A stretch of 64,000 bases of DNA from Flavobacteriales bacterium (GTDB lineage: Bacteria > Bacteroidota > Bacteroidia > Flavobacteriales_F > PHOS-HE28). The stretch's first letter is position 1; every line of letters starts with the position of its first letter. This document shows, in pieces, positions 10,645 through 31,983 of the stretch. The notes below the pieces were generated by a model. The model ran no database searches, was not told where the DNA came from, and worked only from the letters and a program-made list of their open reading frames with translations. Position numbers and translations under genes: made by a program. Location of the stretch: assembly GCA_031411095.1 (NCBI GenBank), contig JANOAK010000023.1, forward strand, positions 13,896-77,895, given 5' to 3'.

Positions 10645-12417
10645 TCAGCGGGGAGCTGAAAGTCGCACACGAAGACCCTTGAGCTGAACGGTGCCTTTGC
10701 CGTTGAGCCAGATGTAGCAGCGCAGCTCCTCACCCGGTGCGGGCGGCGGTACGGTGATCGCGTATCGCCATGCACGCCATGCGCGATCATCGGCCAAGGG
10801 GATGTCATTCAGCGGCCAGGCCTGGTAACCACGCTCCGTCTCGCCCTTCCGCAGTGTGCAGATGAAATAGGCGTGGTCGCTCGCGCCCAACTCCAAGGCC
10901 CGGCGTTGCAGGCTGGCCTCGAGATGAAGCTGGCGACCGGTCGGAAGATCACCCGGGGGCAGGATGAACGCTGGGGAGAACGGATGCGCTGTGTCCAGTT
11001 GGATGATCATGTCCGATCCCACCACCATGACCGAGCCACCTGACCACCGCGTACGATCACGCACGTCATCGGATGCGGTGAGCAGTTGAAGTCCGCGGGG
11101 CGCATAAGGCTCCACACGGTTCGCTCCGCTGAAGGCACCTCGCCAGCGGTCGTGTTTGCGCAGGAGGACAGCGCGGTACTTCTCCCGATCCATGTTGTAC
11201 GGGTGGATGATGCCCACGTGATATTGCCACACCTGGAAGCATTGAAGCCATAACAATGGCACCACCAACAGCATGGTCCCTTTGCGGACCCGGACGGGAA
11301 GTGCATGGAAAAGGAACGCGATCGGGATCGCAAAGAGGGGCAGGAGATCGACGAACGGTCGCGCGCCATACGAATAGCCATAATACCAGATCCACCAACA
11401 GCCGATCACATAGGCTGCGGCGAACAACGCGAGCAGCAGTGAGCCGGCAGCGACCCGCGACCCGCGCGCCAGCACCCACAGACCGGGCAAAGCGAACAAC
11501 AGCAATGGCCAATAGAAGAAGAGTCCTTTGCGCGCGCCGAACAGCAGCGACCACAGCATGGGCCTGTTCCAAAGGAAGCCCTCGCCCGTGTACGGCTGTA
11601 CGAAGAAATGTCCGCATTGGGCATGCCAGAGGATCGGCTGCAGCATGATCACGCCGAGGAACACGGCGATAGCGGGGATCACCATGACAGGGGTGAGCGC
11701 TTGCCACAACTGGCGGAACGAGCGTTGTGTGCCCACTGACACAACAGGCAGGGCAAGCAGCGCGATAAGGTCGGTGGGACGGACGAGCGCAAGGAGCGCA
11801 ATGGACAGCGCAAGCAATGACACGTGCATCCCGGAAGGGGATCGCCATGCGCGTTGGGCCGCATCCAGCACCCAGGCCAGCATCGCGAAGGCATACACAT
11901 GCGACATGGCCGGTGTCATCACGGCGTAGTAACCAAGGCCGGTGCCGAAACAGATGATGGTCAACGCAAGGGCGACGGCGTGTTCGTCCAGAGAGAGCCC
12001 TTCGAGGAAAGAGCGCAAGCGGAAAAGCCCGAAACCGAGGAAGAGCAACGCGCTGGTCCCGATCGCGATGGCGTATGGGAGGGAACGTCCATCGGCGGGT
12101 TGTCCGGTCACCTGGCTGAGCAGATGTGCTCCGATCACGAGGGGTGCTTCGAGCACGGCCGTGCCGCAGAAGTACTTGATCACCTGTCCGTCACCGGCGG
12201 GCGCGAAATGATGCTGCGCTGTTCGCACCTGGGCCAGGTCGCCCTGCACCACGGCGCCCTCGAGGTAGGCGTAGTACCCTTCGCCATCGCTGGAGATCAC
12301 GGACCTCCATCCATCACCTGCGGGTCCGACGAAACGCCAGGCCACGGAGAACACCGTACATACGGCCATGAAAACGATGATCACCGCGTTCGACAAGCGG
12401 CGCTCACGCGTCATCAT
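10645..12417 (-). CDS. Polytopic membrane protein (GT39/ArnT-like fold possible) with soluble C-terminal domain
   Basis: At least 10 hydrophobic helices. High-GC codon bias. ATGA overlap with the upstream metalloprotease gene. Confidence 0.5.
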   Translation of the reverse strand: MMTRERRLSNAVIIVFMAVCTVFSVAWRFVGPAGDGWRSVISSDGEGYYAYLEGAVVQGDLAQVRTAQHHFAPAGDGQVIKYFCGTAVLEAPLVIGAHLLSQVTGQPADGRSLPYAIAIGTSALLFLGFGLFRLRSFLEGLSLDEHAVALALTIICFGTGLGYYAVMTPAMSHVYAFAMLAWVLDAAQRAWRSPSGMHVSLLALSIALLALVRPTDLIALLALPVVSVGTQRSFRQLWQALTPVMVIPAIAVFLGVIMLQPILWHAQCGHFFVQPYTGEGFLWNRPMLWSLLFGARKGLFFYWPLLLFALPGLWVLARGSRVAAGSLLLALFAAAYVIGCWWIWYYGYSYGARPFVDLLPLFAIPIAFLFHALPVRVRKGTMLLVVPLLWLQCFQVWQYHVGIIHPYNMDREKYRAVLLRKHDRWRGAFSGANRVEPYAPRGLQLLTASDDVRDRTRWSGGSVMVVGSDMIIQLDTAHPFSPAFILPPGDLPTGRQLHLEASLQRRALELGASDHAYFICTLRKGETERGYQAWPLNDIPLADDRAWRAWRYAITVPPPAPGEELRCYIWLNGKGTVQLKGLRVRLSAPR

Positions 12418-14534
12418 GGTCGGTGTTCGATCCGTCCACGACGGGTGAGTTTCCGCAATTGTTTGCGCGTGGCCTTCACCTCTGCACTGCCGTGCGTAAT
12501 GATGCGCGAGGTACTGTCGGCGAGGAGCCGAGCCTTGGGTTCCATGGTCAGCACGGTCCCAGGCATCAAGTGGAGGGTGGATCCGTTCCTCAATTCCAAT
12601 GTCGCACTGGGTTCCAGATGCACAAGCCCTCCGGCATCCACCGTGAGACCTGTCGCATTGCTGAAATAGGAGAAGCCTCCCACCTCCTGTGGTTTGTCGA
12701 TCCGCGTGGGTGTGCGCGACCGGTCGATAAGGACCGTGCGTCCTTTGCCGATGTGCAAGGCATGCCCGGCGTATCCCTTCACCGCATGCAGCACAATGCT
12801 GTCAGCGCACCAACGCACATCGCGGTCCACGAAGGTGTCGTTGTTACGCACCCGCACGCGCATGCTGCCATCGGTGCGCTGTTCCAGGAACTTCACGCTA
12901 AGGCCGGCGAGGTGCACGGTGCGGTTGTTGGGCCGTCCACGTTTGAAGGCATCCTTGCCCGGTGTGCTCACGAGCGTGAGCATGTTCGCCAGCGCCGGAT
13001 CGCTGCACATGCTCATTCCGCTGTTGCCTTGGGGTCTGAACGCCTGGCGTGTGTGGCCGAAGAACATGGCCTCATCGAGGTATGCCCCATCGCGCTCCTC
13101 CACGCGTGGCATGAGCCCTTCCTTCGACCGTGACACCACACCATCCTGGTTGGTGTCGAACACCGGGATCTCCAGTTCGCTGGCACCCGTGAGCGGATTG
13201 CTCCAGCGTTCCCTCGCCACCAGCGGAAGTGTCCAACTGGACCACAGGCACTGATAGGTCACCGTGTCGCCACGCAGGTAGTAGTCGTTGAATCCACTGG
13301 CGGGCATGGCGCGCAGGTAGTCCGCATCGCCACCGAAGATGTCCTTGCCACGCTTCCGCTCGCGGTCCACTTGCATCATGGCGAAGATGCCGGGTGCGGC
13401 CTTGCGGACGCAGGACATCTCATTCTCGTAGTGGAAACGGTCCGTGGGCGAACCATTGCGCGACCAGGTCTGGTGGTTCTCCAGCCAGAGCCATTGCGGG
13501 AACTCGTCGTCGCCGAGGTAGGGCATACGGATCCGGATGGCATCGCCAGAGGTCACAAAGTCGCGGAGCGTGAAGGTGCCTGTGTCCCCGTTCAAGGGGT
13601 CCAGATCCCCGTTCACGGCACCGCCGTTCCCGTCTCGCGCGGTGATGGGGAAGGGAGCGTCCTTGGCCTTCCACCCCAACCGGTAGCGGTCCCAGCCACT
13701 GCAGGTCAACAGGCTGCTGCTGGCCGCGCCCATCATGCTCCAACCGCCCTGCAGTGGAATGAAGTAACCCTGGAACTGCGAGGCATTGCCGCCGCCGCTA
13801 TGGAAGTTGTTGCCGCCGAGGAGCAGGTGGTTGAACTCGTGCTTGAGGATCTCGAAGGGCAGGGCGTTCATGCCGCCGAAGCGGCTTTGTGTGTCGCTCT
13901 CGAAGCCGATGAGTTTGCCAGGACTTCCGGGGTCGGTGCTGCCCTGGCCGTGTGTCAGGCCGCTGTTGCGCGCGATCACCATCACGTGGTCGTAGCGATG
14001 CGGATCGTCGGGCTGGTTCACCTTGGGCAGTCCGGGTTTGCCACCGTCCTTCCACAGATCGAAGTCCTCGATCCGCAGGCCATGACGAGTGCGAAGGGTG
14101 CCCATCTTGTTCGCCTCCTTCACCGCCGCTGTCCCGATGCTGTGGGCACTACCCACTTCAGGGTACTCGCTCTCCTTGAGCACCATCTGCTGATCGATGT
14201 AGTCGCCGAGCACGATGAAGTCGCCAAGCGAGATGTCGTGGTAGTACCGGGTGATCGTCGCGGTGGGCAGGGGTTTGGGCTGCGGGTCGAACAGGTCGTC
14301 CTTCCAGGTGGGCAGTTGTCCCTTGACCCAGTGTTCGGCCCCACCCGCCTGGGGGTCCTTGCCGGGGTTCTTGTCGTACACGATCTCGCAGAAGAGTACC
14401 AGCACGCGAATGGTGCCGTGCGGGCTCAGGCTGCTGCCGTTCTCGCTGAAGGGGATGGTGGTGCTGTCGGTCTGGGCGAGAGCGGCTCGGTGACCAACGA
14501 TGCACACCAGGAGCGTTGCAAGCAAAAGGCGCAT
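12414..14534 (-). CDS. Secreted zinc metallopeptidase-like protein (HExxH) with beta-rich C-terminal region
   Basis: Signal peptide MRLLLATLLVCIVG...ALAQ. HEFNH zinc-binding motif. Confidence 0.55.
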   Translation of the reverse strand: MRLLLATLLVCIVGHRAALAQTDSTTIPFSENGSSLSPHGTIRVLVLFCEIVYDKNPGKDPQAGGAEHWVKGQLPTWKDDLFDPQPKPLPTATITRYYHDISLGDFIVLGDYIDQQMVLKESEYPEVGSAHSIGTAAVKEANKMGTLRTRHGLRIEDFDLWKDGGKPGLPKVNQPDDPHRYDHVMVIARNSGLTHGQGSTDPGSPGKLIGFESDTQSRFGGMNALPFEILKHEFNHLLLGGNNFHSGGGNASQFQGYFIPLQGGWSMMGAASSSLLTCSGWDRYRLGWKAKDAPFPITARDGNGGAVNGDLDPLNGDTGTFTLRDFVTSGDAIRIRMPYLGDDEFPQWLWLENHQTWSRNGSPTDRFHYENEMSCVRKAAPGIFAMMQVDRERKRGKDIFGGDADYLRAMPASGFNDYYLRGDTVTYQCLWSSWTLPLVARERWSNPLTGASELEIPVFDTNQDGVVSRSKEGLMPRVEERDGAYLDEAMFFGHTRQAFRPQGNSGMSMCSDPALANMLTLVSTPGKDAFKRGRPNNRTVHLAGLSVKFLEQRTDGSMRVRVRNNDTFVDRDVRWCADSIVLHAVKGYAGHALHIGKGRTVLIDRSRTPTRIDKPQEVGGFSYFSNATGLTVDAGGLVHLEPSATLELRNGSTLHLMPGTVLTMEPKARLLADSTSRIITHGSAEVKATRKQLRKLTRRGRIEHRP

Positions 14535-15232: not shown

Positions 15233-15688
15233 TCATTCCGTGAAGGCGCTGAGCATCCAGTGATGCTTCTCCAATTGCTTGATGAAGCCCTTCACCATCT
15301 CCTCGGTGCCCATGTCGTGGAGTTCCACGGCCGTATCCACGGCCTCCACGGCGAGATCGAGGAGCATGACGTAGTCTGCCAGGAGGTTGCGCACCAAGCG
15401 ATCGGAGGCAGGCACCGATGTGTCCTCCTCGACCGTGCTCTGGGCGAGGAACTCCTTGAAGGTGCTCAACGGGCGCTGGTGGAATACGCGGATCCGCTCG
15501 GCGATCAGATCAATGTTCAGTTGGGCCTCCTGGTATTGCACCTCCAACTCGACATGCAGGTCGAAGAAGTCGCTGCCCTTCACGTTCCAGTGGTAGTTGC
15601 GCAACTTCTGGTAGTGTACCTGGTAGTTGGCCAGCAGGGCGTTCAGTTCTCCAGCGGTCCGCTCGCGCTCGGCCAGCGACCAATGCAA
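15233..15688 (-). CDS. dps: Dps / ferritin-like DNA-protection protein
   Basis: LANYQVHYQKLRNYHWNVKGSDFFDLH...ferroxidase-site motifs. Apparent TTG start. Confidence 0.8.
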   Translation of the reverse strand: MHWSLAERERTAGELNALLANYQVHYQKLRNYHWNVKGSDFFDLHVELEVQYQEAQLNIDLIAERIRVFHQRPLSTFKEFLAQSTVEEDTSVPASDRLVRNLLADYVMLLDLAVEAVDTAVELHDMGTEEMVKGFIKQLEKHHWMLSAFTE

Positions 15689-18491: not shown

Positions 18492-19697
18492 CTAGCGGAT
18501 GGAAGAGCGCTGGAACCCGAACAACTCGGCCGCCGTGGATGGTTGACCCATGACCGCATCGCGCACGATGTTGGCCCCTACCTGACTGAAGGTAATGCCA
18601 TTGCCGCCCATGCCCAGTACGAACCACGCACCGGTGTGCTCGTCGCGATCGATATAAGGCAGGCCGTCCTGTGTGCTCCCGAACGTGCCACACCAAGCGT
18701 ATTCCACGCGGAAGGGAAGGTCGGGGAACAGTTTCCCGAAGTGCACCGCCAACTGTTCCGCCTTGCGCTCCAGTAGTCTGTCCCTGCGGGCCGGATCGCG
18801 GAATGGTTCGTCCAGTCCTCCGATGATGATGCGTCCGTCGGGAGTGGTCCGCAGGTAGAGGTAGGGGCGGTCCGTTTCCCAGATGAAGCAGTCCTGGTGC
18901 CAGAAGGTGTCACGTTCCATGCGTTCACTCGCTACGGCATAGGTGGAGTTCAAGGTCATCACCGGTTCGGGCAGAAGGGCTTGGCTCTCGTAGCCGGTGG
19001 CCATCACCAGATGCTCAGCCCGTATGATGAACCCGTCGGGGGTTTGGATCACAAAAGCGTTGCCTTCGCGCGTGAAGCCCTTCATGGCTGTTCGCTCGAA
19101 CACGTGTCCTTTGCGGGCGATGATATCCTGGAACAAGGCGTGGGTGAACGCGTAGGGATCGATCTCCGCAGCTGGCCGGCACAGGAGCGCCGCAGGTTTG
19201 GAGAAGCCGAACAGGGTCTTCACGGTCGCCGCCTCCAGGAAGTCGACCGCGAAGCCATGCCGGGTCCGCAGTTCGTACTCAGCGCGCAGGCGTTCCACAT
19301 GGCTGCGGCGGCTCGCATACTGAAGACTCTCCCGCGCCCGCACCTGCACGCCCAGTGACGTTGCGAGCCGGATCAGTTGCTGGACCGCCTCGGCACATAG
19401 GCGATAGCTGTCGACCGCGGCCTCCATGCCCACGATCCCGCTTAGCTCATGCAGGGGCGTATCGATCTCGTACTGCAACAGCGCCGTGCTGGCAGCCGTG
19501 CTACCTGTGGCGATGGCCCGCTGGTCGATGACGGCGACGCGCGCGCCGGCCGATGTGCACGCATGCGCACACAGCGCACCGGTGATGCCGCCGCCGATGA
19601 CAAGCACATCGCAGCGGTGATCCGCAGAAAGCGCAGGGTACAAATATGGCAGGCCGTTCCGGATCAGGAAGTAGGGCAGTCCGGAGTGAAGGTCCAT
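18492..19697 (-). CDS. FAD-dependent oxidoreductase (DAO family)
   Basis: GxGxxG dinucleotide motif VLVIGGGITGA. DAO-like length and architecture. Confidence 0.75.
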   Translation of the reverse strand: MDLHSGLPYFLIRNGLPYLYPALSADHRCDVLVIGGGITGALCAHACTSAGARVAVIDQRAIATGSTAASTALLQYEIDTPLHELSGIVGMEAAVDSYRLCAEAVQQLIRLATSLGVQVRARESLQYASRRSHVERLRAEYELRTRHGFAVDFLEAATVKTLFGFSKPAALLCRPAAEIDPYAFTHALFQDIIARKGHVFERTAMKGFTREGNAFVIQTPDGFIIRAEHLVMATGYESQALLPEPVMTLNSTYAVASERMERDTFWHQDCFIWETDRPYLYLRTTPDGRIIIGGLDEPFRDPARRDRLLERKAEQLAVHFGKLFPDLPFRVEYAWCGTFGSTQDGLPYIDRDEHTGAWFVLGMGGNGITFSQVGANIVRDAVMGQPSTAAELFGFQRSSIR

Positions 19698-19834: not shown

Positions 19835-21490
19835 TCACTTTCCCGCGGCGCGCTCGGCGGCCACACTTTGGATCACGCGCTGCAGCGTATGCCGTTCGAT
19901 GGGCTTCACGATATGCTCATCAAAACCCGACATGCGTGACCGCTCACGGTCGCCTTCCTGGCCCCAGCCGGAGACCGCCACGATCCTCGCGCGCTGTCCC
20001 CAAGGCGATCTGCGCATGTGTTGGCAGGCCTCATACCCGTCCATGATGGGCATGCCAAGATCCATGAACACCACATCGGGCCGGAACATGGCGCCTACCT
20101 CCAGGGCTTGCGCGCCGTTGTGGGCCACTTCCACCTCATTGCCCGTTTTCCGAAGCACCATGCTCAGCGACAGGGCCCCATCGAGATTGTCGTCCACCAC
20201 AAGGATGCGCAGGGACGGAACAGGGGGCGCGGAGGCCTCCTGAACGTTGGCCCTGCTGGTCGTTGGCACCTCGGCAAGCGGCAGGCGCAGGACAAACTCA
20301 CTGCCGTGGCCTGCACCTTCACTGTGTGCCTCCAACGTTCCGTTGTGCATGGCGGTGAGCCGTTTGGAGATGTTCAGCCCGATGCCCAGTCCACCGGCAC
20401 CCTGTATGCTTCCATCCACCTGGGTGAACATGTCGAAGATGCCCTCGATGGAAGCCGGGTCGATCCCGATGCCGTTGTCCTTCACACGCAGCACGGCGTG
20501 ATCGCCATCGCGTTCCATACGCAGTTCGATGCGTCCACCCGGGGGGGTGTATTTGGCGGCGTTGTTCAACAAATTGGACAGCACCTGCGCCAAGCGTGTG
20601 CTGTCCCCGTTCACGAGATAGGTGCCTGGGGATACGCGCAGATCGAAGCGGTGGTGTTGCCCCTTCATGAGCGGCATACTGGTCTCTACAGCGGTGTTCA
20701 CGATGTTCGTGAGGTCCACCACCGCTTTGCGCAACACCAATTTGCCCCGGCTGATGCGGCTGAGGTCCATCAGGTCGTCCACCAGGCGCACCATGTGGTT
20801 CAGTTGGCGCAGCATCATCTGGCGGGTGCTTTCCACCAGTGCGGGGTCGGACCCCGCCTCCAGGAGTTGCAGACCGTTCATGAGCGGCGAGAGTGGATTG
20901 CGCAATTCGTGGGCGAGCGTGGCCAGGAAATGATCCTTCTGGCGGGCACTTTCCTCGAGCGCGTTCCGATCCTTCACGCGCTGCGTGATGTCGCGGGTGA
21001 CGGAGAGCAGCCCGATCGCGCTTCCTTCCGCATCGCGCAACACCTTCGTCATGGACTCCACGTGAAGGACCTCACCATTTCGGGTCACCTGGATGTTCTC
21101 GCCGCGCCAGTGTCCGTGATCGTTGAGGCTGGCCATGGCGGCCTGCTCAACCTCGGGGTGCGCCCACCGCGTTTCGTACAGTTCGTTCACCTGCAATCCC
21201 AGGACATCGGCCGATCGGCGTCCGTACTGCTTTTCCGCAGCTTCGTTGATATAGGTGATGTGATGATCGTTGTCGAGGGCGATTACGGCCTCGCTCACTT
21301 GCTGCAACACTTGACCCCGGAACCGGTTGCTGGCGCTTTCCGCGCTTTCAAGGATGAACAGGTCGGTACCGTTCACCAGTGCATCCACATGTCCGTTGCG
21401 GATGGCCTCGAGGGTATCCTCCAGTTCTGCCAGTCGTTCGCGTAGCCGCTCATTCTCCAGGTGCAGTGAAGGATCGCGTTGCGTGTTCAT
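19835..21490 (-). CDS. Hybrid sensor histidine kinase / response regulator (PAS-HisKA-HATPase-REC)
   Basis: PAS region. H-box HELRNPLSPL. N/G boxes (DNGIGI, GGLGIGL). C-terminal receiver ILVVDDN...FMDLGMP...K. Confidence 0.85.
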   Translation of the reverse strand: MNTQRDPSLHLENERLRERLAELEDTLEAIRNGHVDALVNGTDLFILESAESASNRFRGQVLQQVSEAVIALDNDHHITYINEAAEKQYGRRSADVLGLQVNELYETRWAHPEVEQAAMASLNDHGHWRGENIQVTRNGEVLHVESMTKVLRDAEGSAIGLLSVTRDITQRVKDRNALEESARQKDHFLATLAHELRNPLSPLMNGLQLLEAGSDPALVESTRQMMLRQLNHMVRLVDDLMDLSRISRGKLVLRKAVVDLTNIVNTAVETSMPLMKGQHHRFDLRVSPGTYLVNGDSTRLAQVLSNLLNNAAKYTPPGGRIELRMERDGDHAVLRVKDNGIGIDPASIEGIFDMFTQVDGSIQGAGGLGIGLNISKRLTAMHNGTLEAHSEGAGHGSEFVLRLPLAEVPTTSRANVQEASAPPVPSLRILVVDDNLDGALSLSMVLRKTGNEVEVAHNGAQALEVGAMFRPDVVFMDLGMPIMDGYEACQHMRRSPWGQRARIVAVSGWGQEGDRERSRMSGFDEHIVKPIERHTLQRVIQSVAAERAAGK

Positions 21491-21508
21491 GGTCGTCCGG
21501 GTCGTGGA

Positions 21509-21823
21509 TCAAGCGGTCAACCTGGCCAGGAGGCCTGCGGTGTTGGAGAGGTCGCCGATGAACCGGCGGGTGGGCGCGGGGAACTTCTTCACCAACGTGG
21601 GCAAGGCGATGAGCTGCTCCTCCATCGCCAGTTCGGGATGGTTCGCCACGTCAAGCACCTTCAGTTCGTAACGGCCCTTGAGATGCTCCTCGCACACTTT
21701 ACGCACATTGGTGATGGCCCTGGCGGAGAGGGCCGTTGTTCCTGACACATAGAGATGGAGCACGATACGCCCTGCGCGCGCCGATACATCCGGGAATTCG
21801 GCGGGAGTGCCGGAAGACTTCAT
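21509..21823 (-). CDS. kaiB: KaiB (circadian-clock / thioredoxin-like) protein, copy 2
   Basis: [12 protein letters not shown]...[10 protein letters not shown]...RFIGDLSN matches the KaiB fold motifs. ATGA overlap with copy 1. Confidence 0.8.
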
Positions 21824-22152
21824 CTCGTGGTCGAATTCAAGGGCAGCACGTCCAAGCCCACGAGCACCCGCTCCTTCTGGGACAGGTCGCCGATGATCTT
21901 GCGTATGGGTTCGGGCAATTTCCGGACCAGCGTGGGCACGGCGAGGATCTGGTCCCCTGCCGCCAGCTGCGGATGGAGGAGCAGATCGATCACTTCAAGG
22001 CTGTACCTGCCCGCAAGGTGATCCTCGCAGATGGCCTTCAGGTTCTTGATCGCCGCGATCGATTTGGGGGTTCCTCCGGCCACGTACAGGCGAAGCTGAT
22101 ATTCCGGCACAAGGTGGTGGATCGTGGTCTGTGGGGTTTTCCGTGAGGGCAT
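21820..22152 (-). CDS. kaiB: KaiB protein, copy 1
   Basis: [12 protein letters not shown]...[31 protein letters not shown] is a near-canonical KaiB sequence. Confidence 0.85.
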
Positions 22153-22157
22153 GGCGG

Positions 22158-23714
22158 TCAGTGTTTCTTCCCTTTCGTTCGGGAGGTTCCTTTTACCGGT
22201 CGTTCCACGGGCAAGCCCCTCCGCGTTTCCTGCCGCATCCCGAGAGCGCGTGCGCGGCCGGTGAGGACCTGGCCGTTCTGGACATACACATCCACCAGGT
22301 TGATGCCGTCATCGGACAGCACGAATTCCCGCACTTCGTTGGAGTGGGCCATGCCACGCGACTTCAGGAGTGTGAGCAGCCGGCTGCGTTCAGCGTTCTG
22401 TTCCACGTTGCGCAACATCAGCCACGTGTCCATCAGGGAGGAGACCCCGACCTCCGAATCCTCAAGCACGGTGGACTGCGCATCGGTGAGGCTGGTGAAC
22501 ATGGCGGTGATGTTCTTCACTTTCACATGATCGATCAGGCGCATGAGCATGGGCTTCACATCCTGGTCCCTGCGCTCCATGGTGAGGTTGCTGATGGGGT
22601 CCACCACCACCACGGCGGGATCTTTCTCGCGGATGAGGGAATGCATCATCACCAGATGGTCCTCCAGCCCGCTCAAGGTGGGTCGTGAGGCATGGATGGA
22701 CAACAGTCCTTTCTTCACCCAGCGCTCCAGGTCGATGCCGATGGATCGCATGTTGCGCATCAACTGGGAAGGCGATTCCTCGTAGGCGAAGAGCAACGCT
22801 CGTTCCCCGCGTTGGCAGGCGGCCTCCAGGAAGGCGGAGGAGATGCTGCTCTTGCCCGTGCCGGCCGAGCCGCTCACCAGGATGCTGCTTCCGCGGAAGA
22901 ATCCCTTGCCCCGCATCATGTCGTCGAGGGTGGGAATGCCGCTGGATACACGTTGGTTGCTGGCCTTGTGCTCGAGCATCAACGACGTGATGGGCAACAC
23001 GGAGATCCCCGAGGAGGTGATGAGGAAGGGATATTCGTTGCTACCATGTGCCGATCCGCGGTACTTCACGATGCGCAAACGGCGGGTGGAGATCTGGTCG
23101 CGGACCCGGTTGTCCAGCACGATCACACAATCGGCCACGAATTCCTCGAGGCCATGACGCGAGAGGGCATCCTTGCCACGTTCACCGGTGATCACCGCCG
23201 TAAGGCCGTGTTCCTTCAGCCAGCGGAAGAGCCGCCGCAGTTCAGCGCGCAGCACCGCCTCGTTGGGAAGGCTGGCGAAGAGCGCTTCCAAGGTGTCCAG
23301 CACCACACGCTTGGCGCCGATGCTCTTCACCGCATGGCCCAGGCGGATGAAGAGGCCGTCCAGATCGTACTCGCCGGTCTCCTCGATCTCGCTGCGTTCG
23401 ATGCGAACATGATCGATCACGATCTTCTTTTGCGCGACCAGTTTGTCCAGATCGAATCCAAGGGAGCGCACGTTGGCGGCCAATTCTTCGGCGCTCTCCT
23501 CGAACATGAGGAACACGCCGGGCTCCTTGAACTCGGTGGCCCCGCGAACAAGGAATTCGATGGCCATCATGGTCTTGCCACAACCGGCGCCCCCGCAGAT
23601 CAGCGTAGGCCTCCCCGCAGGGAAGCCCCCTGCGGTGATCTCGTCCAACCCCTGAATGCCGGTGGCGGCTTTGGGCAACAACACAGGTTTATTCTCAATT
23701 GGCATGACTACCAA
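22158..23714 (-). CDS. kaiC: KaiC (double RecA-like ATPase)
   Basis: Two Walker A motifs ([16 protein letters not shown]). [18 protein letters not shown]-terminus. ~518 aa two-domain architecture. Confidence 0.9.
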
Positions 23715-24332
23715 ACTAATCGGTTTTTGTTAGATAAAAAAGGGCCGCGTTAAGGGACGGCGGGAAGCCCACGATGGCGCGTTGGTCCATCTCATCTCAC
23801 CGCGGGCTTGCCCATCCTTCGACCTGTGGGTTGTTGCGGTGTTGGGTCGGCTGGATGTTCCTTCGACGGCTGGAGCGGCTGGCCAGGATGGTTCGGGACC
23901 TCCCTTGGGGTGATGGTGGGAGTGCCTGGCAGCGGCCCAGGGGATGGCTTGGGGCCCGGCCCCGGATCCGGTGCGGGCTCCGGCGTTCCGGGTAGCGTAG
24001 GACCGGGGGTCATGGGTTGCGGATCCGGGGGGTCCACCGTGAGGGTTCCAGTGATCGATCCACTGGACCGGAAGTTCTGCTCGATCATCATCGGTTTTTT
24101 TCGGAACCGCTGCGATCGCAATGCCGTAAAGGTCCCCCCACGCGAAGCCGATTTCCCGTTGGAACAGGGGAGGTTTCTCCCCGATCAGGGCACCGGTTAC
24201 CACGGAACGGGTAGGCCCATTGGTTTCGAATGGTCGTCTCTACGGCCACAAAACGTGAAGGCCCCATCCCTGGGGCCTGCACGTTCGATGAACAGTAGTG
24301 TCAAGGGGTCGCCTTTCGGTCAGTCCTTGGCC

Positions 24333-27280: not shown

Positions 27281-27494
27281 TGGGGCGCAGAGCACCCGTG
27301 CAGAAAATGACCGATGCAATAGGCTTATTCCACCACTAAGCCGCAGGGTCATCCGCTCATCCAGGCTAAAGGCATGGATAGCGGAGAGATCAGGGCGTAT
27401 GCGGGAGGGCCCTGCACGGGCTGTGGATCCCCAGGCAAAGACTCGCATGGAGTGCAGCCACGGCACCGACAGGGGCATGGTTCAATTGTTGAGC

Positions 27495-27890
27495 AACGTA
27501 GGGCCCATGTTCGGCCGCAGTGCGCTAATGTTGGCCAACAATCCCCCGATGTTGGGCAATATTCGGCTGATGTTGGAGAACAATGCCCCCATGTTGGTCA
27601 ACATTCCCCCGATGTTGGACAACAATGTCCTGATGTGGGCTAACATTCCGCTGATGTTCGGCAACAATGCCCTGGTGTTGGTCAACATTCCGCCGATGTT
27701 GGGCAACACTGCCCTGATGTGGGGCAACATTCCGCTGATGTCGGACAACGAGCCACCTATGTAGATCAACATTCCGCTGTTGTTGGACAACGATCCACCG
27801 ATGTGGGTCAACATTCCCCTGATGTTGGGCAACACTGCCCTGATGTGGGTCAACATCCCGCTGAAGTTGGACAACAAACCCCCAATGCCA
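27495..27890. repeat. 21-bp tandem repeat (~19 copies; consensus CAACA(A/T)TCCNCTGATGTTGGG) = heptad period
   Basis: Direct reading of the sequence. The minus-strand frame stays open through the whole array (ORF 27482..28153, LPNIGGM/LTNTRAL heptads). The plus-strand frame contains a stop at ~27762. Confidence 0.85.
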
Positions 27891-27984
27891 GCACGCTGCA
27901 GCATTCGACGGCGCCGGTCGTGAGGTTCAAGCGCCAGTAGTATCGCAGCTGCCTGCGTGCCAGGGCAGCGGGGATCACCGACAA

Positions 27985-28021
27985 CTCGGGGCAGGCCGGC
28001 AAGAAGAAGGGGCGGAAGGAG
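27985..28021 (+). repeat. ~35-bp direct repeat copy A (..GGGGCAGGCCGGCAAGAAGAAGGGGCGGAAGGAG)
   Basis: One of three same-orientation copies (also ~31316-31348 and ~31923-31958), all intergenic, bounding gene modules of the island. Confidence 0.7.
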
Positions 28022-28146
28022 AACGGTCAAGCGCACGAGCGTTGACGCTTGCGCGAGTTGTGGGTTTTCCACAGCCAGGCGGACTATGAATGCGACGACG
28101 TTACTTTGAGCATCGGAGATTGACGATTTCCCCGCCATCAACAGCA

Positions 28147-29841
28147 ATGACAACCGCTCAGTTGACCCTCCTCGACCAGAGCGAGCTCTTGGAGCTTGTT
28201 CCTGCGCTTCCGCCGATTGAGGAAGGGGACAACCTCGGCGCCGTCTTCACCAAGGAATGGGTGGTGGATCTGATGCTCGATCTCTGCGACTATCGCGCGG
28301 AACATGACCTGTCGAAGATCCGGCTCTTGGAACCGTCCTGTGGTGATGGCGCGTTCCTCCAGTGCATCGTGAAGCGCCTGTCAACTTCGTTACGCACACA
28401 TGGCCACACCCTGAGCGATGCCCGCAACGCTATCCGCGCGTACGATCTGCAAAGCCGCAATGTGCAGGCTGCGCGCGAGCGAGTCGCGGAATTGCTCTTA
28501 GCTGACGGCTGGAACAACGTGAACGATCTCGTTGTGCACTGGATCCGCCACGCCGACTACCTGCTTGCACCCGACCCACCCCACTTCGATCTGGTGATCG
28601 GCAACCCGCCTTACATCCGTGCGCAGGAGATACCCGATGAGCGGCGCAACACCTACATCCGACTGTGGGACACCATGACCATGGGCACCGACATCTTCGT
28701 CGGCTTCATCGAGAAGGGCCTTCGCTCCTTGAAGCCCGAGGGCCGTCTGTGCTTCATCGTTGCGGATCGCTGGCAGCACAACGCCTACGGACGCAAACTC
28801 CGCAAGCTCATCAGCGAGCGCTACGCCGTGGATGCCATGTTCGAGATGCACGGCGTCGATGCCTTCGCAGCGCCCGTATCCGCGTATCCGGCGATCACCC
28901 TCATCCGGAGTGGCAAGCAGGGGTCTGTTCGGTACGCCAGCGCGCAGAGCGATCTCAACGCAGAAGGCGGGGAACGGCTCAAGGAATGGTTCGGACAGAA
29001 TGAGCCCGGTGCGACGCACGACCCGATGTTCTCGGCCTGCGTGCTGCCCGATTGGTTCCGCACCGAGGAGATCTGGCCCAGCGGCTCGCCTGAAGTGCTG
29101 GCCTTCCTGGAGGACATGTCCGAGCGCTTCCAAACGTTGGAAGATGCAACCACCGGTACCAAAGTGGGCATCGGCATTGCCACCGGTGCTGATGAGGTCT
29201 TCATCACCGATGATGCGGACTGCGTCGAAGCTGAGCGGTTGATTCCGCTGCTCACCTCAGCGGACATCACCACGGGCCGCGTGCGATGGAAAGGCAACTA
29301 CCTCGTGAACCCTTGGGACGAAAGTGGTCAGTTGGTTGACTTGTCGCATCGTCCCAAGTTGAGCGCCTATTTCGAGAAGCATTCGCCCATCCTGCGGAAG
29401 CGCCATGTGGCACAGAAGCGCATGGAACGCTGGTACGGTACCATCGACAAAGTGCATGCAGGCTTGCGCGAACGGCCCAAGCTGGTGCTGCAGGACATGA
29501 GCAGCACCATATCACCCGTGCTTGATACGCAGAACTATCCGCACCACAATCTGTACTGGATAACGAGCAGGGTGTGGGACCTCGAGGTGCTTGGTGGTCT
29601 CTTGCTTTCGGAAGTCGCCGAGTTATTCGTGCGCGCCTATGGCGTGAAAATGCGCAACGGCACCATGCGCTTCCAATCACAATACTTGCGCATGATCAGG
29701 GTGCCCGCTCCTTCAAGCCTCTCAACGGATCTTCAGGAGCGCTTGCGCACCGCTTTCCGAGAACGCGACCGCGCGATGGCCACACAAGCCGCATTGCTCG
29801 CCTACAATCTGGAGACGCTACCGAATTTCAAGGGGCGATGA
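28147..29841 (+). CDS. N6-adenine-specific DNA methyltransferase (gamma-class, Eco57I/TaqI-like)
   Basis: Motif I LEPSCGDGAFL and motif IV GNPPYIR. Start probably at MTTAQL (ORF opens at 28090). Confidence 0.8.
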   Translation: MTTAQLTLLDQSELLELVPALPPIEEGDNLGAVFTKEWVVDLMLDLCDYRAEHDLSKIRLLEPSCGDGAFLQCIVKRLSTSLRTHGHTLSDARNAIRAYDLQSRNVQAARERVAELLLADGWNNVNDLVVHWIRHADYLLAPDPPHFDLVIGNPPYIRAQEIPDERRNTYIRLWDTMTMGTDIFVGFIEKGLRSLKPEGRLCFIVADRWQHNAYGRKLRKLISERYAVDAMFEMHGVDAFAAPVSAYPAITLIRSGKQGSVRYASAQSDLNAEGGERLKEWFGQNEPGATHDPMFSACVLPDWFRTEEIWPSGSPEVLAFLEDMSERFQTLEDATTGTKVGIGIATGADEVFITDDADCVEAERLIPLLTSADITTGRVRWKGNYLVNPWDESGQLVDLSHRPKLSAYFEKHSPILRKRHVAQKRMERWYGTIDKVHAGLRERPKLVLQDMSSTISPVLDTQNYPHHNLYWITSRVWDLEVLGGLLLSEVAELFVRAYGVKMRNGTMRFQSQYLRMIRVPAPSSLSTDLQERLRTAFRERDRAMATQAALLAYNLETLPNFKGR

Positions 29842-30542
29842 AGAAGGACCATCGAAAGGAAGTCCTAGCCCTGTGGAAGCTGAGGTCCAAGGCGGAGAAG
29901 AAGGCGCGCAAGGGAGGCAACACCGACCCCGGTCTTCGCGCAGGCGTGACTTCTGGCCGACACTTGGACCCCTTGTCCCAGCTGATGCGAAGCATCTTCA
30001 TCGATGCGGGCATACCGGCGGCGGATGTGCATTGCGGGAGCACGAACTTGGAGATACCCGGATTCTATCGACCGCAGAAGAAGTGGGATGTGGTAGTAGT
30101 ACACAAGGGTGTACTGGTGGCGGCCGTGGAGTTCAAGAGCATTTTGGGTAGCTACGGCAACAACATGAACAACCGTACCGAGGAATCCCTGGGGAACGCT
30201 ACTGATCTGCTAGAAGCCGCCGAACAAGGCCTCATCGGCACAAGACCGCCGTGGCTGGGCTTCGTCTTCTTCATGCAGGATGATGAGCGCTCCCGCAAAG
30301 GAGGCAAGAGCGCCAAGCAACCGCATTTCAGTATCGATCCCGAATTCGTTGGCGCGAACTATCAGAGCCGCGCTTCGATCTGGTTGCGGCGCTTGCTGAT
30401 GAAGCGGCTCTACAACGCTGCTTGGTATGCATTGGTCGATCCTGCACAGGGTGTGGAGGGTGTGCGCGAGCCGGATGCCGAACTAAGTTGGGCCAAGTTC
30501 GAGGCAGCGATACGTGGAAGGGTTGGGGAGGTGTTGGCGTAG
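29838..30542 (+). CDS. Putative type II restriction endonuclease (PaeR7I/XhoI-like size and context)
   Basis: ATGA overlap with the MTase stop. 234 aa, acidic/Lys-rich core. Assignment rests on synteny and size, not on a recognised catalytic motif. Confidence 0.45.
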   Translation: MKKDHRKEVLALWKLRSKAEKKARKGGNTDPGLRAGVTSGRHLDPLSQLMRSIFIDAGIPAADVHCGSTNLEIPGFYRPQKKWDVVVVHKGVLVAAVEFKSILGSYGNNMNNRTEESLGNATDLLEAAEQGLIGTRPPWLGFVFFMQDDERSRKGGKSAKQPHFSIDPEFVGANYQSRASIWLRRLLMKRLYNAAWYALVDPAQGVEGVREPDAELSWAKFEAAIRGRVGEVLA

Positions 30543-30625
30543 GGTTTTCACGCCCTACGCATGACAGGTCGTTGGTGACTCCAAAATGGCACGGGCTTTT
30601 CTATCGCAGGCCTATCCATATCGCC

Positions 30626-31243
30626 ATGACAGCAATCCGGCACGCACTTCAAGGAGCAAGGGAGCAGTTCGACTTCTGTACGCATGCACTGTCGTACTTT
30701 GAGAAGAAGGATGAATCATCCCGGAAGGTTGGAGCGAACGTCATTCTTCAGTCCGGCCGTGCTATCACGTATGGCATGGAGACCTTGGCCAAAGCCAGCC
30801 ATGAATTCGCGACGTGGTACAGGCCATATGGAGCTGAGCTGCATGCTGATCCCATTCTGAAGTATTTCCGGGAAGTCCGGAATGTGATTGTTCACCGGTC
30901 TGGCAGGATTGAGTTGAACCACATCTCAACCGTACCCATTAATGACCCCAAGCCAGGAGCCATCGAGGAACTCATCGCCGACGGTTCGACCATTGACCAT
31001 ATGAACATCGACTTTCTCAAGAACAGGAGATACTTGGTTGTCCGAACCCCCTATGGAAGGCGGGAAGAGAGGGACGTTCCTCAAAGGCGGGAAGGACCGT
31101 GGTGGCTGTTGGTCGATGTACAATCCTACTTCAAAGACGCCCCAGTGGAGTTCGCGGGCGTAACAGTGGTTGAAAGTTGCCAGCGGTATGTGCGTTTCCT
31201 TGGTCGTCTAATCCAGGATGCTGAAGTCAGGTTTGGCATGTAG
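30626..31243 (+). CDS. Hypothetical protein (possible HEPN-like Rx4H motif), island cargo
   Basis: Lower-GC ORF after the R-M pair. RNVIVH motif. No confident homology. Confidence 0.35.
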   Translation: MTAIRHALQGAREQFDFCTHALSYFEKKDESSRKVGANVILQSGRAITYGMETLAKASHEFATWYRPYGAELHADPILKYFREVRNVIVHRSGRIELNHISTVPINDPKPGAIEELIADGSTIDHMNIDFLKNRRYLVVRTPYGRREERDVPQRREGPWWLLVDVQSYFKDAPVEFAGVTVVESCQRYVRFLGRLIQDAEVRFGM

Positions 31244-31315
31244 TACGAAATGCGAGGCTACGAGTCACAGACTCACGGCAGTGGAGGGAGCAAAACTGCC
31301 GTATGCATGACCGAG

Positions 31316-31348
31316 CTGGGGACTGGCAAGAAGAAGGGGAGGAGGTAG
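31316..31348 (+). repeat. ~35-bp direct repeat copy B
   Basis: CTGGGGACTGGCAAGAAGAAGGGGAGGAGGTAG. Intergenic, between the hypothetical gene and the RusA-like gene. Confidence 0.7.
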
Positions 31349-31408
31349 ACTGGGGAGTAAGTTCGAAGACGCCGGGGCTCCACCTCGGGACACCATGGCG
31401 GATTAGAC

Positions 31409-31873: not shown

Positions 31874-31922
31874 GGCCGATAAAGATAACTGGACACAATT
31901 GCTCCATTGCGCAGGCGAGCGA

Positions 31923-31958: not shown

Positions 31959-31983
31959 GGAAGTAGAGCGGGATGGTGGCTGG

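What the first reader, a model, noticed from the sequence alone, without database searches (positions are those of the whole stretch)
19835..23714. kaiC-kaiB-kaiB-hybrid histidine-kinase operon without kaiA in a T9SS-bearing (Bacteroidota-like) genome
Four minus-strand genes sit with gaps of 5, -4 and 18 nt: a full-length two-domain KaiC, two tandem KaiB paralogs, and a PAS-HisKA-HATPase-REC hybrid kinase. No KaiA, SasA or CikA is present. This looks like a self-contained KaiBC-type hourglass or stress-timer module whose output goes through a fused kinase/receiver rather than the cyanobacterial SasA-RpaA pair. The duplicated kaiB and the fused receiver are unusual. The residues aligned to the cyanobacterial S431/T432 phosphosites appear to be Ser-Ser here ([10 protein letters not shown]), which would be worth confirming by alignment.
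Basis: partly seen in the sequence, partly recalled or inferred. Interest (0 to 1): 0.75.

Follow-up and report, generated by a model that had tools for sequence, protein, structure and literature searches.

The report
Two-KaiB KaiC timer operon with kinase
This is a real four-gene kaiC–kaiB–kaiB–sensor-kinase operon of the KaiA-independent "KaiC2" type that is already known from purple bacteria; it is an ordinary member of that class, except that its KaiC lacks the usual coiled-coil tail and its second KaiB looks locked in the KaiC-binding fold.

Summary
Four tightly packed minus-strand genes encode a two-domain KaiC, two KaiB paralogs and a PAS-HisKA-HATPase-REC hybrid kinase, all with very strong profile scores. 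The Ser-Ser phosphosite is real. It is also the published hallmark of the KaiC2 subgroup: the nearest solved structure is Rhodobacter sphaeroides KaiC (56% identity, same "SSLMD" site). A KaiA-less kaiC-kaiB-PAS/HK operon is a described class. The "unusual" tandem kaiB and the fused receiver are in fact the majority architecture among relatives (15 of 21 lineages across about 10 phyla, including cultured Brevifollis). Two things do differ here. (1) This KaiC and its ~10 closest relatives have only a ~30-residue disordered tail in place of the ~85-residue coiled coil, which in KaiC-RS drives autodephosphorylation. (2) The second KaiB of this Bacteroidota subclade carries natural equivalents of the engineered fold-switch-locking changes (Y8→I, I88→A, G89→R, D91→T, truncated end). 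AlphaFold models it in the thioredoxin-like fold and models KaiB1 in the ground-state fold, both at low confidence. The best reading is a KaiA-independent KaiC phospho-timer or energy sensor read out by the kinase, with sub-functionalised KaiBs. I rate it a new variant of a known kind, of moderate interest.

The parts
22158..23714 (-). kaiC, two-domain, KaiC2/KaiC-RS type. 518 aa from the TTG at 23714; the more likely start is the ATG at 23705, giving 515 aa.
   Evidence: PF06745 scores 366 bits in two stretches, and NCBIfam PRK09302 scores 732 bits against a cut-off of 408. The best solved relative is R. sphaeroides KaiC 8DBA, at 591 bits and 56% identity over 479 columns. P0001 is 100% identical and 515 aa.
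22989..23666 (-). KaiC CI domain (residues 17-242), with Walker A GGAGCGKT (23571-23594) and catalytic EE in FEES (23493-23504).
   Evidence: It aligns to KaiC-RS without gaps across CI, including the region where KaiB binds.
22248..22967 (-). KaiC CII domain (residues 250-489), with Walker A GSAGTGKS (22848-22871) and EE in YEES (22773-22784).
22437..22442 (-). Ser425-Ser426, the predicted autophosphorylation pair. Ser420 (22455-22457) is at the position of S. elongatus T426.
   Evidence: The pair aligns to S413/S414 of KaiC-RS and to the EE of the 8FWI phosphomimic. It also aligns to S431/T432 of S. elongatus KaiC. 117 of 120 homologues have SS here.
22161..22247 (-). Short C-terminal tail of KaiC (29 aa, [29 protein letters not shown]). 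It is rich in Pro, Gly and basic residues and has no coiled coil.
   Evidence: Most relatives have tails of 82-98 aa with heptad-like A/E/R/L/Q sequence. P0001-P0009, P0011 and P0018 all have tails of 20-35 aa that are poorly conserved.
21820..22152 (-). kaiB1 (110 aa), the canonical position-1 KaiB. It retains Tyr18, Gly99 and Asp101, which correspond to T. elongatus Y8, G89 and D91.
   Evidence: PF07689 scores 88.5 bits and PRK09301 scores 111.5 against a cut-off of 110. It hits KaiB-RS 8FWJ_M at 2.8e-29. It clusters with other position-1 KaiBs and KaiB-RS in the NJ tree. VLVGL is invariant in its subfamily. The AF2 model is ground-state-like.
21509..21823 (-). kaiB2 (104 aa), the divergent position-2 KaiB paralog. 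Its start overlaps the kaiB1 stop (ATGA).
   Evidence: PF07689 scores 83.8 bits, but PRK09301 scores 75.9, below the cut-off of 110. It is 51% identical to KaiB1. It groups with other position-2 KaiBs.
21512..21541 (-). KaiB2 C-terminus, [10 protein letters not shown]-stop. Ala100, Arg101 and Thr103 replace T. elongatus I88, G89 and D91, and the chain ends at the equivalent of residue 92. Ile20 replaces Y8.
   Evidence: The positions come from alignment to the fold-switch-stabilised KaiB structures 5JWQ_B and 5JWO_B. The subfamily consensus is ...DLSxTDRLLARIxI-stop, with R101 at least 90% conserved. The engineered Y8A, G89A or D91R, Y94A and truncation changes favour fsKaiB. The AF2 model has a C-terminal helix and matches fsKaiB structures best.
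19835..21490 (-). Hybrid sensor histidine kinase (551 aa). Its parts are a conserved N-terminal helix segment (21317-21457), PAS (20975-21313), HisKA with His194 (20909-20911), HATPase_c (20273-20608), and a REC domain (19871-20206) with Asp477 (20060-20062).
   Evidence: Pfam domains are. The H-box AHELRNPL and the receiver residues DD...D...S...K are intact. Orthologues follow kaiB2 in L033, L040, L038 and L039. In L036 the kinase and a 116-aa receiver are separate genes.
23744..23761 (-). Terminator-like hairpin plus T-run immediately upstream of kaiC. It probably ends the upstream transcript and so marks the 5' limit of the kai transcription unit.
   Evidence: There are no minus-strand terminator-like sites between 19835 and 23714. 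The count of such sites in the region is not above the shuffled expectation, so this is only suggestive.

Best explanation
The locus is a single transcription unit encoding a KaiA-independent KaiC2-type KaiBC signalling device.

By homology with R. sphaeroides KaiC, the KaiC hexamer autophosphorylates Ser425/Ser426 constitutively when ATP is plentiful (inferred). KaiB binds the post-hydrolysis CI ring of phospho-KaiC and promotes dephosphorylation when the ATP:ADP ratio falls. The result is an hourglass-type or energy/night-sensing phospho-switch rather than a free-running clock (inferred).

This KaiC lacks the coiled-coil tail. In KaiC-RS that tail is dispensable for autophosphorylation but needed for fast autodephosphorylation. 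This KaiC is therefore predicted to be a hexamer whose reset depends more heavily on its KaiB partners (inferred).

The two KaiBs appear to have split functions:
- KaiB1 is a canonical, probably metamorphic KaiB.
- KaiB2 carries natural equivalents of the fold-switch-locking mutations. It is probably permanently in the thioredoxin-like, KaiC-binding-competent fold. It may act as a fast-binding nucleator of, or competitor to, KaiB1. Alternatively it may be the adaptor that couples the KaiC state to the co-transcribed PAS hybrid kinase (speculative).

Output is phosphotransfer from His194 to the receiver Asp477. The receiver is fused here and is a separate single-domain protein in a close relative. 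It has no DNA-binding domain, so the downstream step is protein-protein interaction or a phosphorelay (inferred).
For: Identity and intact catalytic and phospho-acceptor residues:
-.
- 56% identity to KaiC-RS, with the SS site conserved.

Published biochemistry of KaiC-RS and of its Δcoil truncation:
- Autophosphorylation 5.5 versus 7.4 per hour.
- Little autodephosphorylation without the coil.
- KaiB binds the post-hydrolysis state.

The operon:
- Gaps of 5, -4 and 18 nt.
- No internal terminator-like sites on the coding strand.
- The same gene order in 15 of 21 related lineages from about 10 phyla.

The short tail is a clade feature, not an assembly error. The 10 closest KaiCs (75-81% identity) are 492-514 aa.

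The KaiB paralogs:
- Position-1 and position-2 KaiBs separate in an NJ tree.
- KaiB1 keeps Y8, G89 and D91. KaiB2 has I, A(88), R(89) and T(91) and ends at residue 92.
- These are the positions engineered to stabilise fsKaiB.
- The AF2 model of KaiB1 matches ground-state KaiB tetramer structures (TM 0.55-0.63).
- The AF2 model of KaiB2 matches fold-switched KaiB, Legionella KaiB and KaiB-TV4 (TM 0.57-0.67), against 0.41-0.48 for ground state.

Kinase and receiver are a cognate pair: they are fused in the window, L033 and L040, and split in L036.
Against: - Nothing here is experimental for this organism. The timing or hourglass behaviour is extrapolated from a protein that is 56% identical and has the coiled coil this KaiC lacks.
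- Both AF2 models have low confidence (mean pLDDT 62 and 57). AF2 state preferences for KaiB are known to be method-dependent.
- Most position-2 KaiBs outside this subclade keep the 'GLD' motif. The 'locked' property is therefore not the general reason for having two KaiBs.
- No KaiB-like docking domain is detectable in the kinase. The physical link between KaiC/KaiB and the kinase rests on conserved synteny alone.
- The Legionella KaiBC homologue is implicated in stress response rather than timing (cited).
Confidence: 0.6

Rival explanations
1. The module is not a timer at all. It is a stress or energy-state signalling system, like the Legionella pneumophila KaiBC, in which KaiC ATPase and phosphorylation simply gate the PAS kinase in response to redox, light or ATP status.
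For: [quoted passage not shown] The KaiB2 model resembles it (4KUN, TM 0.64).
- Stress genes sit near kai clusters: Dps/ferritin at 15233-15688 in the window, HSP20 in L033, and HSP20, catalase and hemerythrin in L039.
- The organism is a non-phototrophic-looking Bacteroidota with T9SS cargo.
- Losing the coiled coil removes the element that gives KaiC-RS its fast intrinsic reset.
Against: - The KaiC is much closer to the hourglass KaiC-RS than to other types (591 bits).
- All phospho-timer residues are retained, including the dual Ser sites and the T426-equivalent Ser.
- Timer and stress sensor are not mutually exclusive. The R. sphaeroides system itself reads the ATP:ADP ratio.
Confidence: 0.25
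2. The two differentiated KaiBs make this a self-sustained KaiA-free oscillator. A locked KaiB2 and a slowly switching KaiB1 would compete on the CI ring and supply the delayed negative feedback and reset that KaiA and KaiB provide in cyanobacteria.
For: - The tandem, differentiated KaiB pair is conserved across phyla.
- The fold-switch residues are retained in one copy and lost in the other.
- There is precedent for a thioredoxin-fold KaiB-like domain sharing the KaiB site on KaiC: SasA-N bound to CI, PDB 6X61, listed.
Against: - There is no positive element comparable to KaiA.
- The single-KaiB relative KaiBC-RS is an hourglass.
- Nothing in the sequence speaks to oscillation.
- Most position-2 KaiBs keep the ground-state motif.
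Confidence: 0.07
3. KaiB2 is a redundant or decaying duplicate with no separate function, and the locus works exactly like the single-KaiB kaiC-kaiB-HK operons.
For: - KaiB2 falls below the NCBIfam KaiB equivalog cut-off (75.9 versus 110).
- It evolves faster than KaiB1: 32 invariant columns against 58 in comparably close sets.
- Some lineages have only one KaiB (L008, L020, L022, L023).
Against: - The ORF is intact and translationally coupled (ATGA overlap).
- Position-2 KaiBs are retained in 15 of 21 lineages and form their own group.
- The core motifs ([16 protein letters not shown]..RFIGDLS) and the altered C-terminus are themselves conserved within the subfamily.
Confidence: 0.08

Closest known systems
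Rhodobacter sphaeroides KaiBC hourglass (KaiC-RS/KaiB-RS; PDB 8DBA, 8DB3, 8FWI, 8FWJ; Pitsawong et al. 2023, PMC10076222)
   Same: - It is the closest solved KaiC (56% identity).
- It has the same Ser-Ser phosphosite.
- It has no KaiA.
- KaiB1 is most similar to KaiB-RS.
- It is described as a kaiC-B-PAS/HK operon.
   Different: - KaiC-RS has an ~85-residue C-terminal coiled coil that makes a dodecamer and accelerates autodephosphorylation. The window KaiC has a 29-residue non-coil tail.
- The R. sphaeroides operon is described with one kaiB. The window has two, the second lacking the fold-switch residues.
Rhodopseudomonas palustris KaiBC proto-circadian system (Ma et al. 2016, PMC4794148)
   Same: It has kaiC, kaiB and a PAS histidine kinase predicted to be driven by one promoter. 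It has no kaiA and belongs to the KaiC2 type.
   Different: It has a single kaiB and a KaiC about 50 aa longer at the C-terminus than S. elongatus KaiC. It is a phototroph with a nitrogen-fixation read-out.
Cyanobacterial KaiABC with SasA/CikA-RpaA output
   Same: It has a homologous two-domain KaiC with Walker A, EE and dual phosphosites. It has a homologous KaiB with G88/D90-type fold-switch residues (KaiB1). Output goes through a histidine kinase.
   Different: - KaiC scores below the cyanobacterial-type model TIGR02655 (384 versus 546).
- The phosphosite is Ser-Ser, not Ser-Thr.
- No KaiA was found among the ORFs scanned.
- The kinase has no SasA-like KaiB/thioredoxin N-domain, and its receiver is a real one (Asp477), not a CikA-type pseudo-receiver.
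Constitutively fold-switched KaiB-family proteins: Legionella pneumophila KaiB (4KUN), T. elongatus vestitus KaiB-TV4 (8UBH), SasA N-terminal domain
   Same: The KaiB2 model has the thioredoxin-like β-α-β-α-β-β-α order with a C-terminal helix. It superposes best on these structures and on engineered fsKaiB. It lacks the G89/D91 pair.
   Different: KaiB2 is only 29-31% identical to 4KUN and 8UBH in those superpositions. It is encoded in tandem with a canonical KaiB in the same operon. Its fold state is predicted, not measured.
kaiC-kaiB gene context with a downstream HK or GGDEF/EAL protein (De Luca et al. 2011, PMC3164672)
   Same: This is exactly that context class: kaiC (ST or SS sites) clustered with kaiB and followed by a histidine kinase.
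   Different: The text of that paper, as far as I could read it, does not discuss tandem kaiB paralogs or tail loss.

Membership tests
KaiC (two-domain circadian clock protein KaiC) | Two tandem RecA-like KaiC domains that score above curated thresholds | tested here: met
   PF06745 scores 366.5 bits in 2 stretches (cut-off 26.6). NCBIfam NF006799/PRK09302 scores 732 bits (cut-off 408).
KaiC (two-domain circadian clock protein KaiC) | Match to the cyanobacterial-type equivalog TIGR02655 | tested here: not met
   383.8 bits against a cut-off of 546.25. It is not a cyanobacterial KaiC1-type protein.
KaiC (two-domain circadian clock protein KaiC) | Walker A and catalytic Glu-Glu in both domains, and two adjacent hydroxyl phosphosites in CII | tested here: met
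   [12 protein letters not shown] and [12 protein letters not shown] are present. S425/S426 align to S413/S414 (KaiC-RS) and to S431/T432 (S. elongatus).
KaiC2 subgroup (KaiC-RS clade) | Ser-Ser phosphosite pair | tested here: met
   (117 of 120 homologues are SS).
KaiC2 subgroup (KaiC-RS clade) | C-terminal extension of ~50 aa that forms a coiled coil and a dodecamer | tested here: not met
   The tail is 29 aa, rich in Pro and Gly, against 82-98 aa in most relatives. The closest 10 homologues are also short. Oligomeric state itself is not testable here.
KaiB | KaiB domain above the Pfam gathering score | tested here: met
   KaiB1 scores 88.5 and KaiB2 scores 83.8 bits against 27.
KaiB | NCBIfam KaiB equivalog (PRK09301) cut-off | tested here: inconclusive
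   KaiB1 scores 111.5 against 110, so it just passes. KaiB2 scores 75.9, so it fails.
Metamorphic (fold-switching) KaiB | Residues that control the switch (S. elongatus G88/D90 = T. elongatus G89/D91; also Y8 and a C-terminal β4 strand) | tested here: inconclusive
   KaiB1 meets this (Y18, G99, D101). KaiB2 does not (I20, A100, R101, T103, and it ends at the equivalent of residue 92). Actual fold populations are not testable with these tools. The AF2 models (pLDDT 62 and 57) point to ground state for KaiB1 and fold-switched state for KaiB2.
KaiA-independent kaiC-kaiB-PAS/HK operon (R. sphaeroides / R. palustris type) | kaiC, kaiB and a PAS histidine kinase adjacent on one strand as a presumptive operon | tested here: met
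   The gaps are 5, -4 and 18 nt. There are no internal terminator-like sites on the coding strand. The order is conserved in relatives. Co-transcription itself was not tested.
KaiA-independent kaiC-kaiB-PAS/HK operon (R. sphaeroides / R. palustris type) | Absence of kaiA from the genome | not testable with these tools
   No KaiA family hit was found in the 24 ORFs scanned with Pfam. Only 64 kb of the genome is available.
Cyanobacterial SasA-type output kinase | N-terminal KaiB-like/thioredoxin-like KaiC-binding domain fused to the kinase | tested here: not met
   The kinase N-terminus is a conserved helical segment followed by PAS, with no KaiB hit. PRK09303 scores only 115 bits against a cut-off of 342, and that match covers only the kinase core.
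Hybrid histidine kinase | H-box His, HATPase_c, and a receiver with the acidic pocket, phospho-Asp, Ser/Thr and Lys | tested here: met
   H194 lies in AHELRNPL. The receiver has VVDDN...FMD477LGMP...VSGWG...IVKP.
Anti-phage defence systems (PADLOC) | Significant full-length match of the components to a defence-system model | tested here: not met
   Only short partial matches to generic P-loop, REC and HATPase segments were found.

The most novel reading that the evidence does not exclude
The conserved tandem pair is a division of labour that has not been described. One KaiB is metamorphic (KaiB1). The other is naturally locked in the thioredoxin-like fold (KaiB2). In this Bacteroidota clade KaiB2 has taken over a role otherwise played by the KaiC coiled-coil tail or by KaiA, SasA or CikA. 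For example, it could drive KaiC reset, or physically bridge KaiC to the receiver domain of the hybrid kinase. That would give a new wiring of a Kai timer, possibly with free-running behaviour.
Probability: 0.12. Interest if true: 0.75.

Novelty: new variant of a known kind. Interest (0 to 1): 0.4.

Why it matters
The experimentally studied KaiA-less Kai systems (R. sphaeroides, R. palustris, Legionella) are described with a single KaiB. The first two also have a coiled-coil-tailed KaiC. My survey shows that the commonest architecture in this KaiC clade is instead kaiC-kaiB-kaiB-HK, spread over about 10 phyla. It also shows a Bacteroidota subclade that has lost the coiled coil and evolved a second KaiB carrying the same substitutions that biochemists engineered to lock the fold switch.

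If the prediction holds, this is a natural experiment on how a metamorphic protein duplicates and sub-functionalises. It would also be a handle on the open question of how KaiBC hourglass modules are reset and coupled to two-component output outside cyanobacteria.

As a genome-annotation matter the locus itself is ordinary: a KaiC2-type KaiBC operon of a kind already catalogued in Bacteroidetes.

Tried and rejected
- **Source contig.** An exact-sequence look-up of P0001 found nothing on record. The cluster listing gave no name or accession. The organism is therefore only inferred, from named relatives (Flavobacteriales, Flavisolibacter and Bacteroidota MAGs) and from T9SS cargo.
- **Rfam.** No RNA family was found in 15-29 kb.
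- **Promoter scan.** The sigma-70 scan was uninformative (one site inside another gene, at shuffle expectation), and Bacteroidota promoters are not covered. By eye, a TAgTTTG-like element sits about 10 nt before the ATG of kaiC, but it is not a clean TAnnTTTG match.
- **Defence-system reading.** Rejected.
- **Literature on tandem kaiB-kaiB.** Six searches and the papers I then read found no explicit description of a tandem kaiB-kaiB after kaiC. The R. rubrum 'kaiB1/kaiB2' are two separate kaiBC pairs, not a tandem. Figures and supplements were not readable, so earlier depiction of the tandem cannot be excluded.
- **Tail loss versus KaiB2 change.** I considered that loss of the coiled coil and loss of the KaiB2 'GLD' motif are strictly coupled. 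This is rejected. Tail-less L024 and L011 keep 'GLD' in KaiB2, and Chloroflexus (long tail) has a divergent KaiB2 end.
- **Short tail as an assembly or frameshift artefact.** Rejected, because kaiB1 starts 5 nt after the kaiC stop and all the closest homologues are equally short.
- **Downstream DAO oxidoreductase (18492-19697).** It lies 137 nt after the kinase on the same strand but is not conserved next to kai clusters elsewhere, so I did not count it as part of the system.

Full report
**Observation**

The window carries four consecutive minus-strand ORFs at exactly the reported positions:
- 22158-23714, 518 aa
- 21820-22152, 110 aa
- 21509-21823, 104 aa
- 19835-21490, 551 aa

They are separated by 5 nt, a 4-nt ATGA overlap, and 18 nt.

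Pfam and NCBIfam identify them unambiguously:
- The first is a two-domain KaiC. PF06745 scores 366 bits in two stretches, and PRK09302 scores 732 bits against a cut-off of 408.
- The next two are KaiB domains. PF07689 scores 88.5 and 83.8 bits against 27.
- The last is a PAS-HisKA-HATPase_c-Response_reg hybrid kinase.

The public database holds an identical KaiC that starts at the ATG three codons further in (P0001, 515 aa, from a 152-kb NCBI contig). The true start is therefore probably 23705.

Walker A and catalytic Glu-Glu motifs are intact in both KaiC halves. The kinase keeps its H-box His194 and a complete receiver pocket with Asp477.

**Phosphosites**

The best solved relative is Rhodobacter sphaeroides KaiC (8DBA/8DB3; 591 bits, 56% identity over 479 columns). 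'[10 protein letters not shown]' aligns to 'AGLSSLMDGW'. The S413E/S414E phosphomimic 8FWI shows 'EE' in exactly those two columns.

A global alignment to S. elongatus KaiC gives these equivalences:
- S425/S426 on S431/T432
- S420 on T426

So the Ser-Ser reading is correct. It is also not a peculiarity:
- Two serines are the published signature of the KaiC2 subgroup (Schmelling 2017; Pitsawong 2023).
- 117 of the 120 best database homologues have SS.

**What class this is**

KaiA-less kaiC-kaiB clusters followed by a histidine kinase were catalogued as a gene context in 2011. 'kaiC-B-PAS/HK' operons are described for R. palustris and R. sphaeroides. Bacteroidetes were singled out as encoding only KaiB2/KaiC2-type proteins. 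The KaiC here fails the cyanobacterial-type model TIGR02655 (384 against 546 bits).

None of the 20 further ORFs I scanned hits KaiA, SasA or CikA families. These were ten ORFs between 14.5 and 27.3 kb and ten large ORFs elsewhere in the window. Absence from the whole genome cannot be judged from 64 kb.

Bacteroidota affiliation is supported by two lines of evidence:
- A CHU_C type-IX-secretion cargo protein lies at 4602-8534.
- The closest KaiB relatives are named Flavobacteriales, Flavisolibacter and Bacteroidota MAGs.

**Is the tandem kaiB, or the fused receiver, unusual?**

No. I fetched 32 genomic loci with related KaiCs and eight more around close database homologues, then mapped the four window proteins onto them.

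Of 21 distinct lineages with enough sequence downstream of a KaiC2-type kaiC:
- 15 have two tandem kaiB genes. These are Roseiarcus, Terriglobia, Latescibacterota, two Syntrophorhabdales loci, two Bacteroidota MAGs, a gammaproteobacterium, Omnitrophota, Chloroflexus, Brevifollis gellanilyticus, Aquabacterium, and three metagenomic relatives of the window.
- 4 have one kaiB.
- 2 have none downstream.

A kinase almost always follows. A PAS...HisKA-HATPase-REC hybrid follows in at least six other lineages.

In the close relative L036 (KaiC 77% identical), the kinase (416 aa) and a 116-aa single-domain receiver are separate adjacent genes. That receiver aligns residue for residue with the fused REC of the window. 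Kinase and receiver are therefore a cognate pair, and the output has no DNA-binding domain.

An NJ tree of the KaiBs puts all position-1 copies, together with R. sphaeroides KaiB, in one clade. The position-2 copies fall in a separate grouping. The duplication is therefore old and both copies are maintained. The two window copies are 51% identical.

Six literature searches and the papers I then read gave no explicit description of this tandem arrangement. Figures and supplements could not be read.

**What is different here (1): the KaiC tail**

The KaiC2 clade is characterised by a C-terminal extension of about 50 residues that forms a 12-helix coiled coil joining two hexamers. Most relatives have 82-98 residues after the core, with obvious coiled-coil composition. 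The window KaiC has 29 residues, rich in Pro, Gly and basic residues.

This is not an artefact:
- kaiB1 begins 5 nt after the stop codon.
- The ten closest database KaiCs (75-81% identity) all have short, poorly conserved tails of 20-35 residues.
- Only 17 of the top 120 hits are short-tailed.

The published truncation KaiC-RS-Δcoil still exchanges nucleotide and autophosphorylates at near wild-type rates (5.5 against 7.4 per hour), but shows little autodephosphorylation. By analogy, this KaiC should be a KaiA-independent autokinase hexamer whose reset depends on partners. This is an inference.

**What is different here (2): KaiB2**

KaiB1 keeps Tyr18, Val98, Gly99 and Asp101, equivalent to T. 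elongatus Y8, I88, G89 and D91. 'VLVGL' is invariant among its closest homologues.

KaiB2 differs at each of these positions:
- Ile20 in place of Y8
- Ala100 in place of I88
- Arg101 in place of G89
- Thr103 in place of D91
- a chain end at the equivalent of residue 92

Its subfamily (about 18 cluster representatives) has the consensus end '...DLSxTDRLLARIxI-stop', with Arg101 at least 90% conserved. The wider position-2 family keeps 'ILLGLDL'.

G88/D90 (S. elongatus numbering) are the residues reported to regulate the KaiB fold switch. Truncation after residue 94 together with Y8A, G89A or D91R, and Y94A is the engineered route to fold-switched KaiB. The fold-switch-stabilised chain of 5JWQ has Ala at position 88 in the alignment.

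I ran AlphaFold2 with shallow subfamily alignments:
- KaiB1 gave a β-α-β...α-β model ending in a strand. It matches ground-state KaiB tetramer structures best (TM 0.55-0.63).
- KaiB2 gave a β-α-β-α-β-β-α model ending in a helix. It matches engineered fsKaiB, KaiC-bound KaiB-RS, Legionella KaiB and KaiB-TV4 best (TM 0.57-0.67, against 0.41-0.48 for ground-state structures).

Both models are of low confidence (pLDDT 62 and 57). I treat this as supporting rather than decisive evidence.

**Transcription unit**

The spacing suggests translational coupling. The only minus-strand terminator-like sites in 18.3-24.9 kb lie upstream of kaiC. One of them (23761-23744, followed by a T-run) sits immediately before the kaiC start region. 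The count of such sites does not exceed the shuffled expectation, so this is weak evidence.

Conserved gene order across phyla is the stronger argument for an operon. The FAD oxidoreductase 137 nt downstream is not conserved next to kai clusters elsewhere, so I exclude it.

**Mechanism proposed**

1. KaiC autophosphorylates S425/S426 when ATP is high.
2. KaiB binding to the post-hydrolysis CI ring promotes the return. The coiled coil that speeds intrinsic dephosphorylation in KaiC-RS is absent here.
3. KaiB1 supplies the slow, metamorphic binder.
4. KaiB2 is a permanently binding-competent paralog. It either nucleates or competes with KaiB1, or it recruits the hybrid kinase.
5. The kinase phosphorylates its own receiver (or, in relatives, a separate one).

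The steps shown here are gene content, motif integrity, synteny and paralog differentiation. Everything kinetic is inferred from R. sphaeroides.

The main rival is a non-timing stress or energy sensor of the Legionella type. Stress genes lie near several kai clusters: Dps here, and HSP20, catalase and hemerythrin elsewhere. A defence-system reading is rejected.

**Verdict**

The finding is real and correctly annotated, but it belongs to a known class. Its advertised oddities (Ser-Ser sites, two kaiB genes, a fused receiver, no KaiA) are the norm for that class.

The noteworthy points are the natural loss of the coiled coil and a second KaiB that appears naturally locked in the fold-switched state. 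Both sit in a conserved two-KaiB architecture that the experimental models are not described as having. I rate this a new variant of a known kind, with moderate interest (0.4).

Noticed in passing
window 27523-27882: A tandem repeat of 21-nt period and about 17 copies (69-80% matches). It is open in reading frames on both strands (ORFs 27399-27764 on + and 27482-28153 on -) and would encode a 7-residue repeat. It has no family hit.
   Followed up: partly
window ~30000-36100: A low-GC stretch (0.50-0.55 against ~0.61 elsewhere). It lies next to an Eco57I/TaqI-type N6-adenine methylase at 28090-29841 and contains a 924-aa ORF (33307-36081) with no Pfam hit. It looks like an acquired restriction-modification or defence island.
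   Followed up: no
window 23792-24121 (-): A proline-rich 109-aa ORF lies in the ~620-nt gap upstream of kaiC and is followed by the terminator-like hairpin at 23761-23744. It has no family hit. It is unclear whether it is a gene.
   Followed up: partly
window 36218-41231 (-): A class III adenylate/guanylate cyclase (39288-41231) overlaps the start of a NuoG/formate-dehydrogenase-like molybdopterin oxidoreductase (36218-39295). This is an unusual-looking pairing.
   Followed up: no
window 4602-8534 (-): A 1310-aa DUF7948/SBBP/PKD protein ends in a CHU_C type IX secretion signal. This supports the Bacteroidota/T9SS context. ORFs 10645-12417, 12414-14534 and 55177-57147 have no Pfam hit.
   Followed up: partly
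L033 12028-13692; L040 8360-8941: In close relatives the kai operon is extended. L033 has a second paralogous PAS hybrid kinase directly after the first. L040 has a MEDS-domain protein after the kinase. Neither is present in the window.
   Followed up: no
window 15233-15688; L033 5333-5845; L039 1-3444: Stress-protection genes recur near kai clusters: Dps/ferritin in the window, HSP20 in L033, and catalase plus HSP20 plus hemerythrin in L039. This may hint at a stress-related regulon.
   Followed up: no
L013-L025 (Chloroflexus loci), position-2 kaiB: Chloroflexus position-2 KaiBs have independently lost the GLD motif ('...WPRVAAALNILTDDD') although their KaiC keeps the long coiled-coil tail. 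Divergence of the second KaiB's C-terminus has therefore happened more than once.
   Followed up: partly
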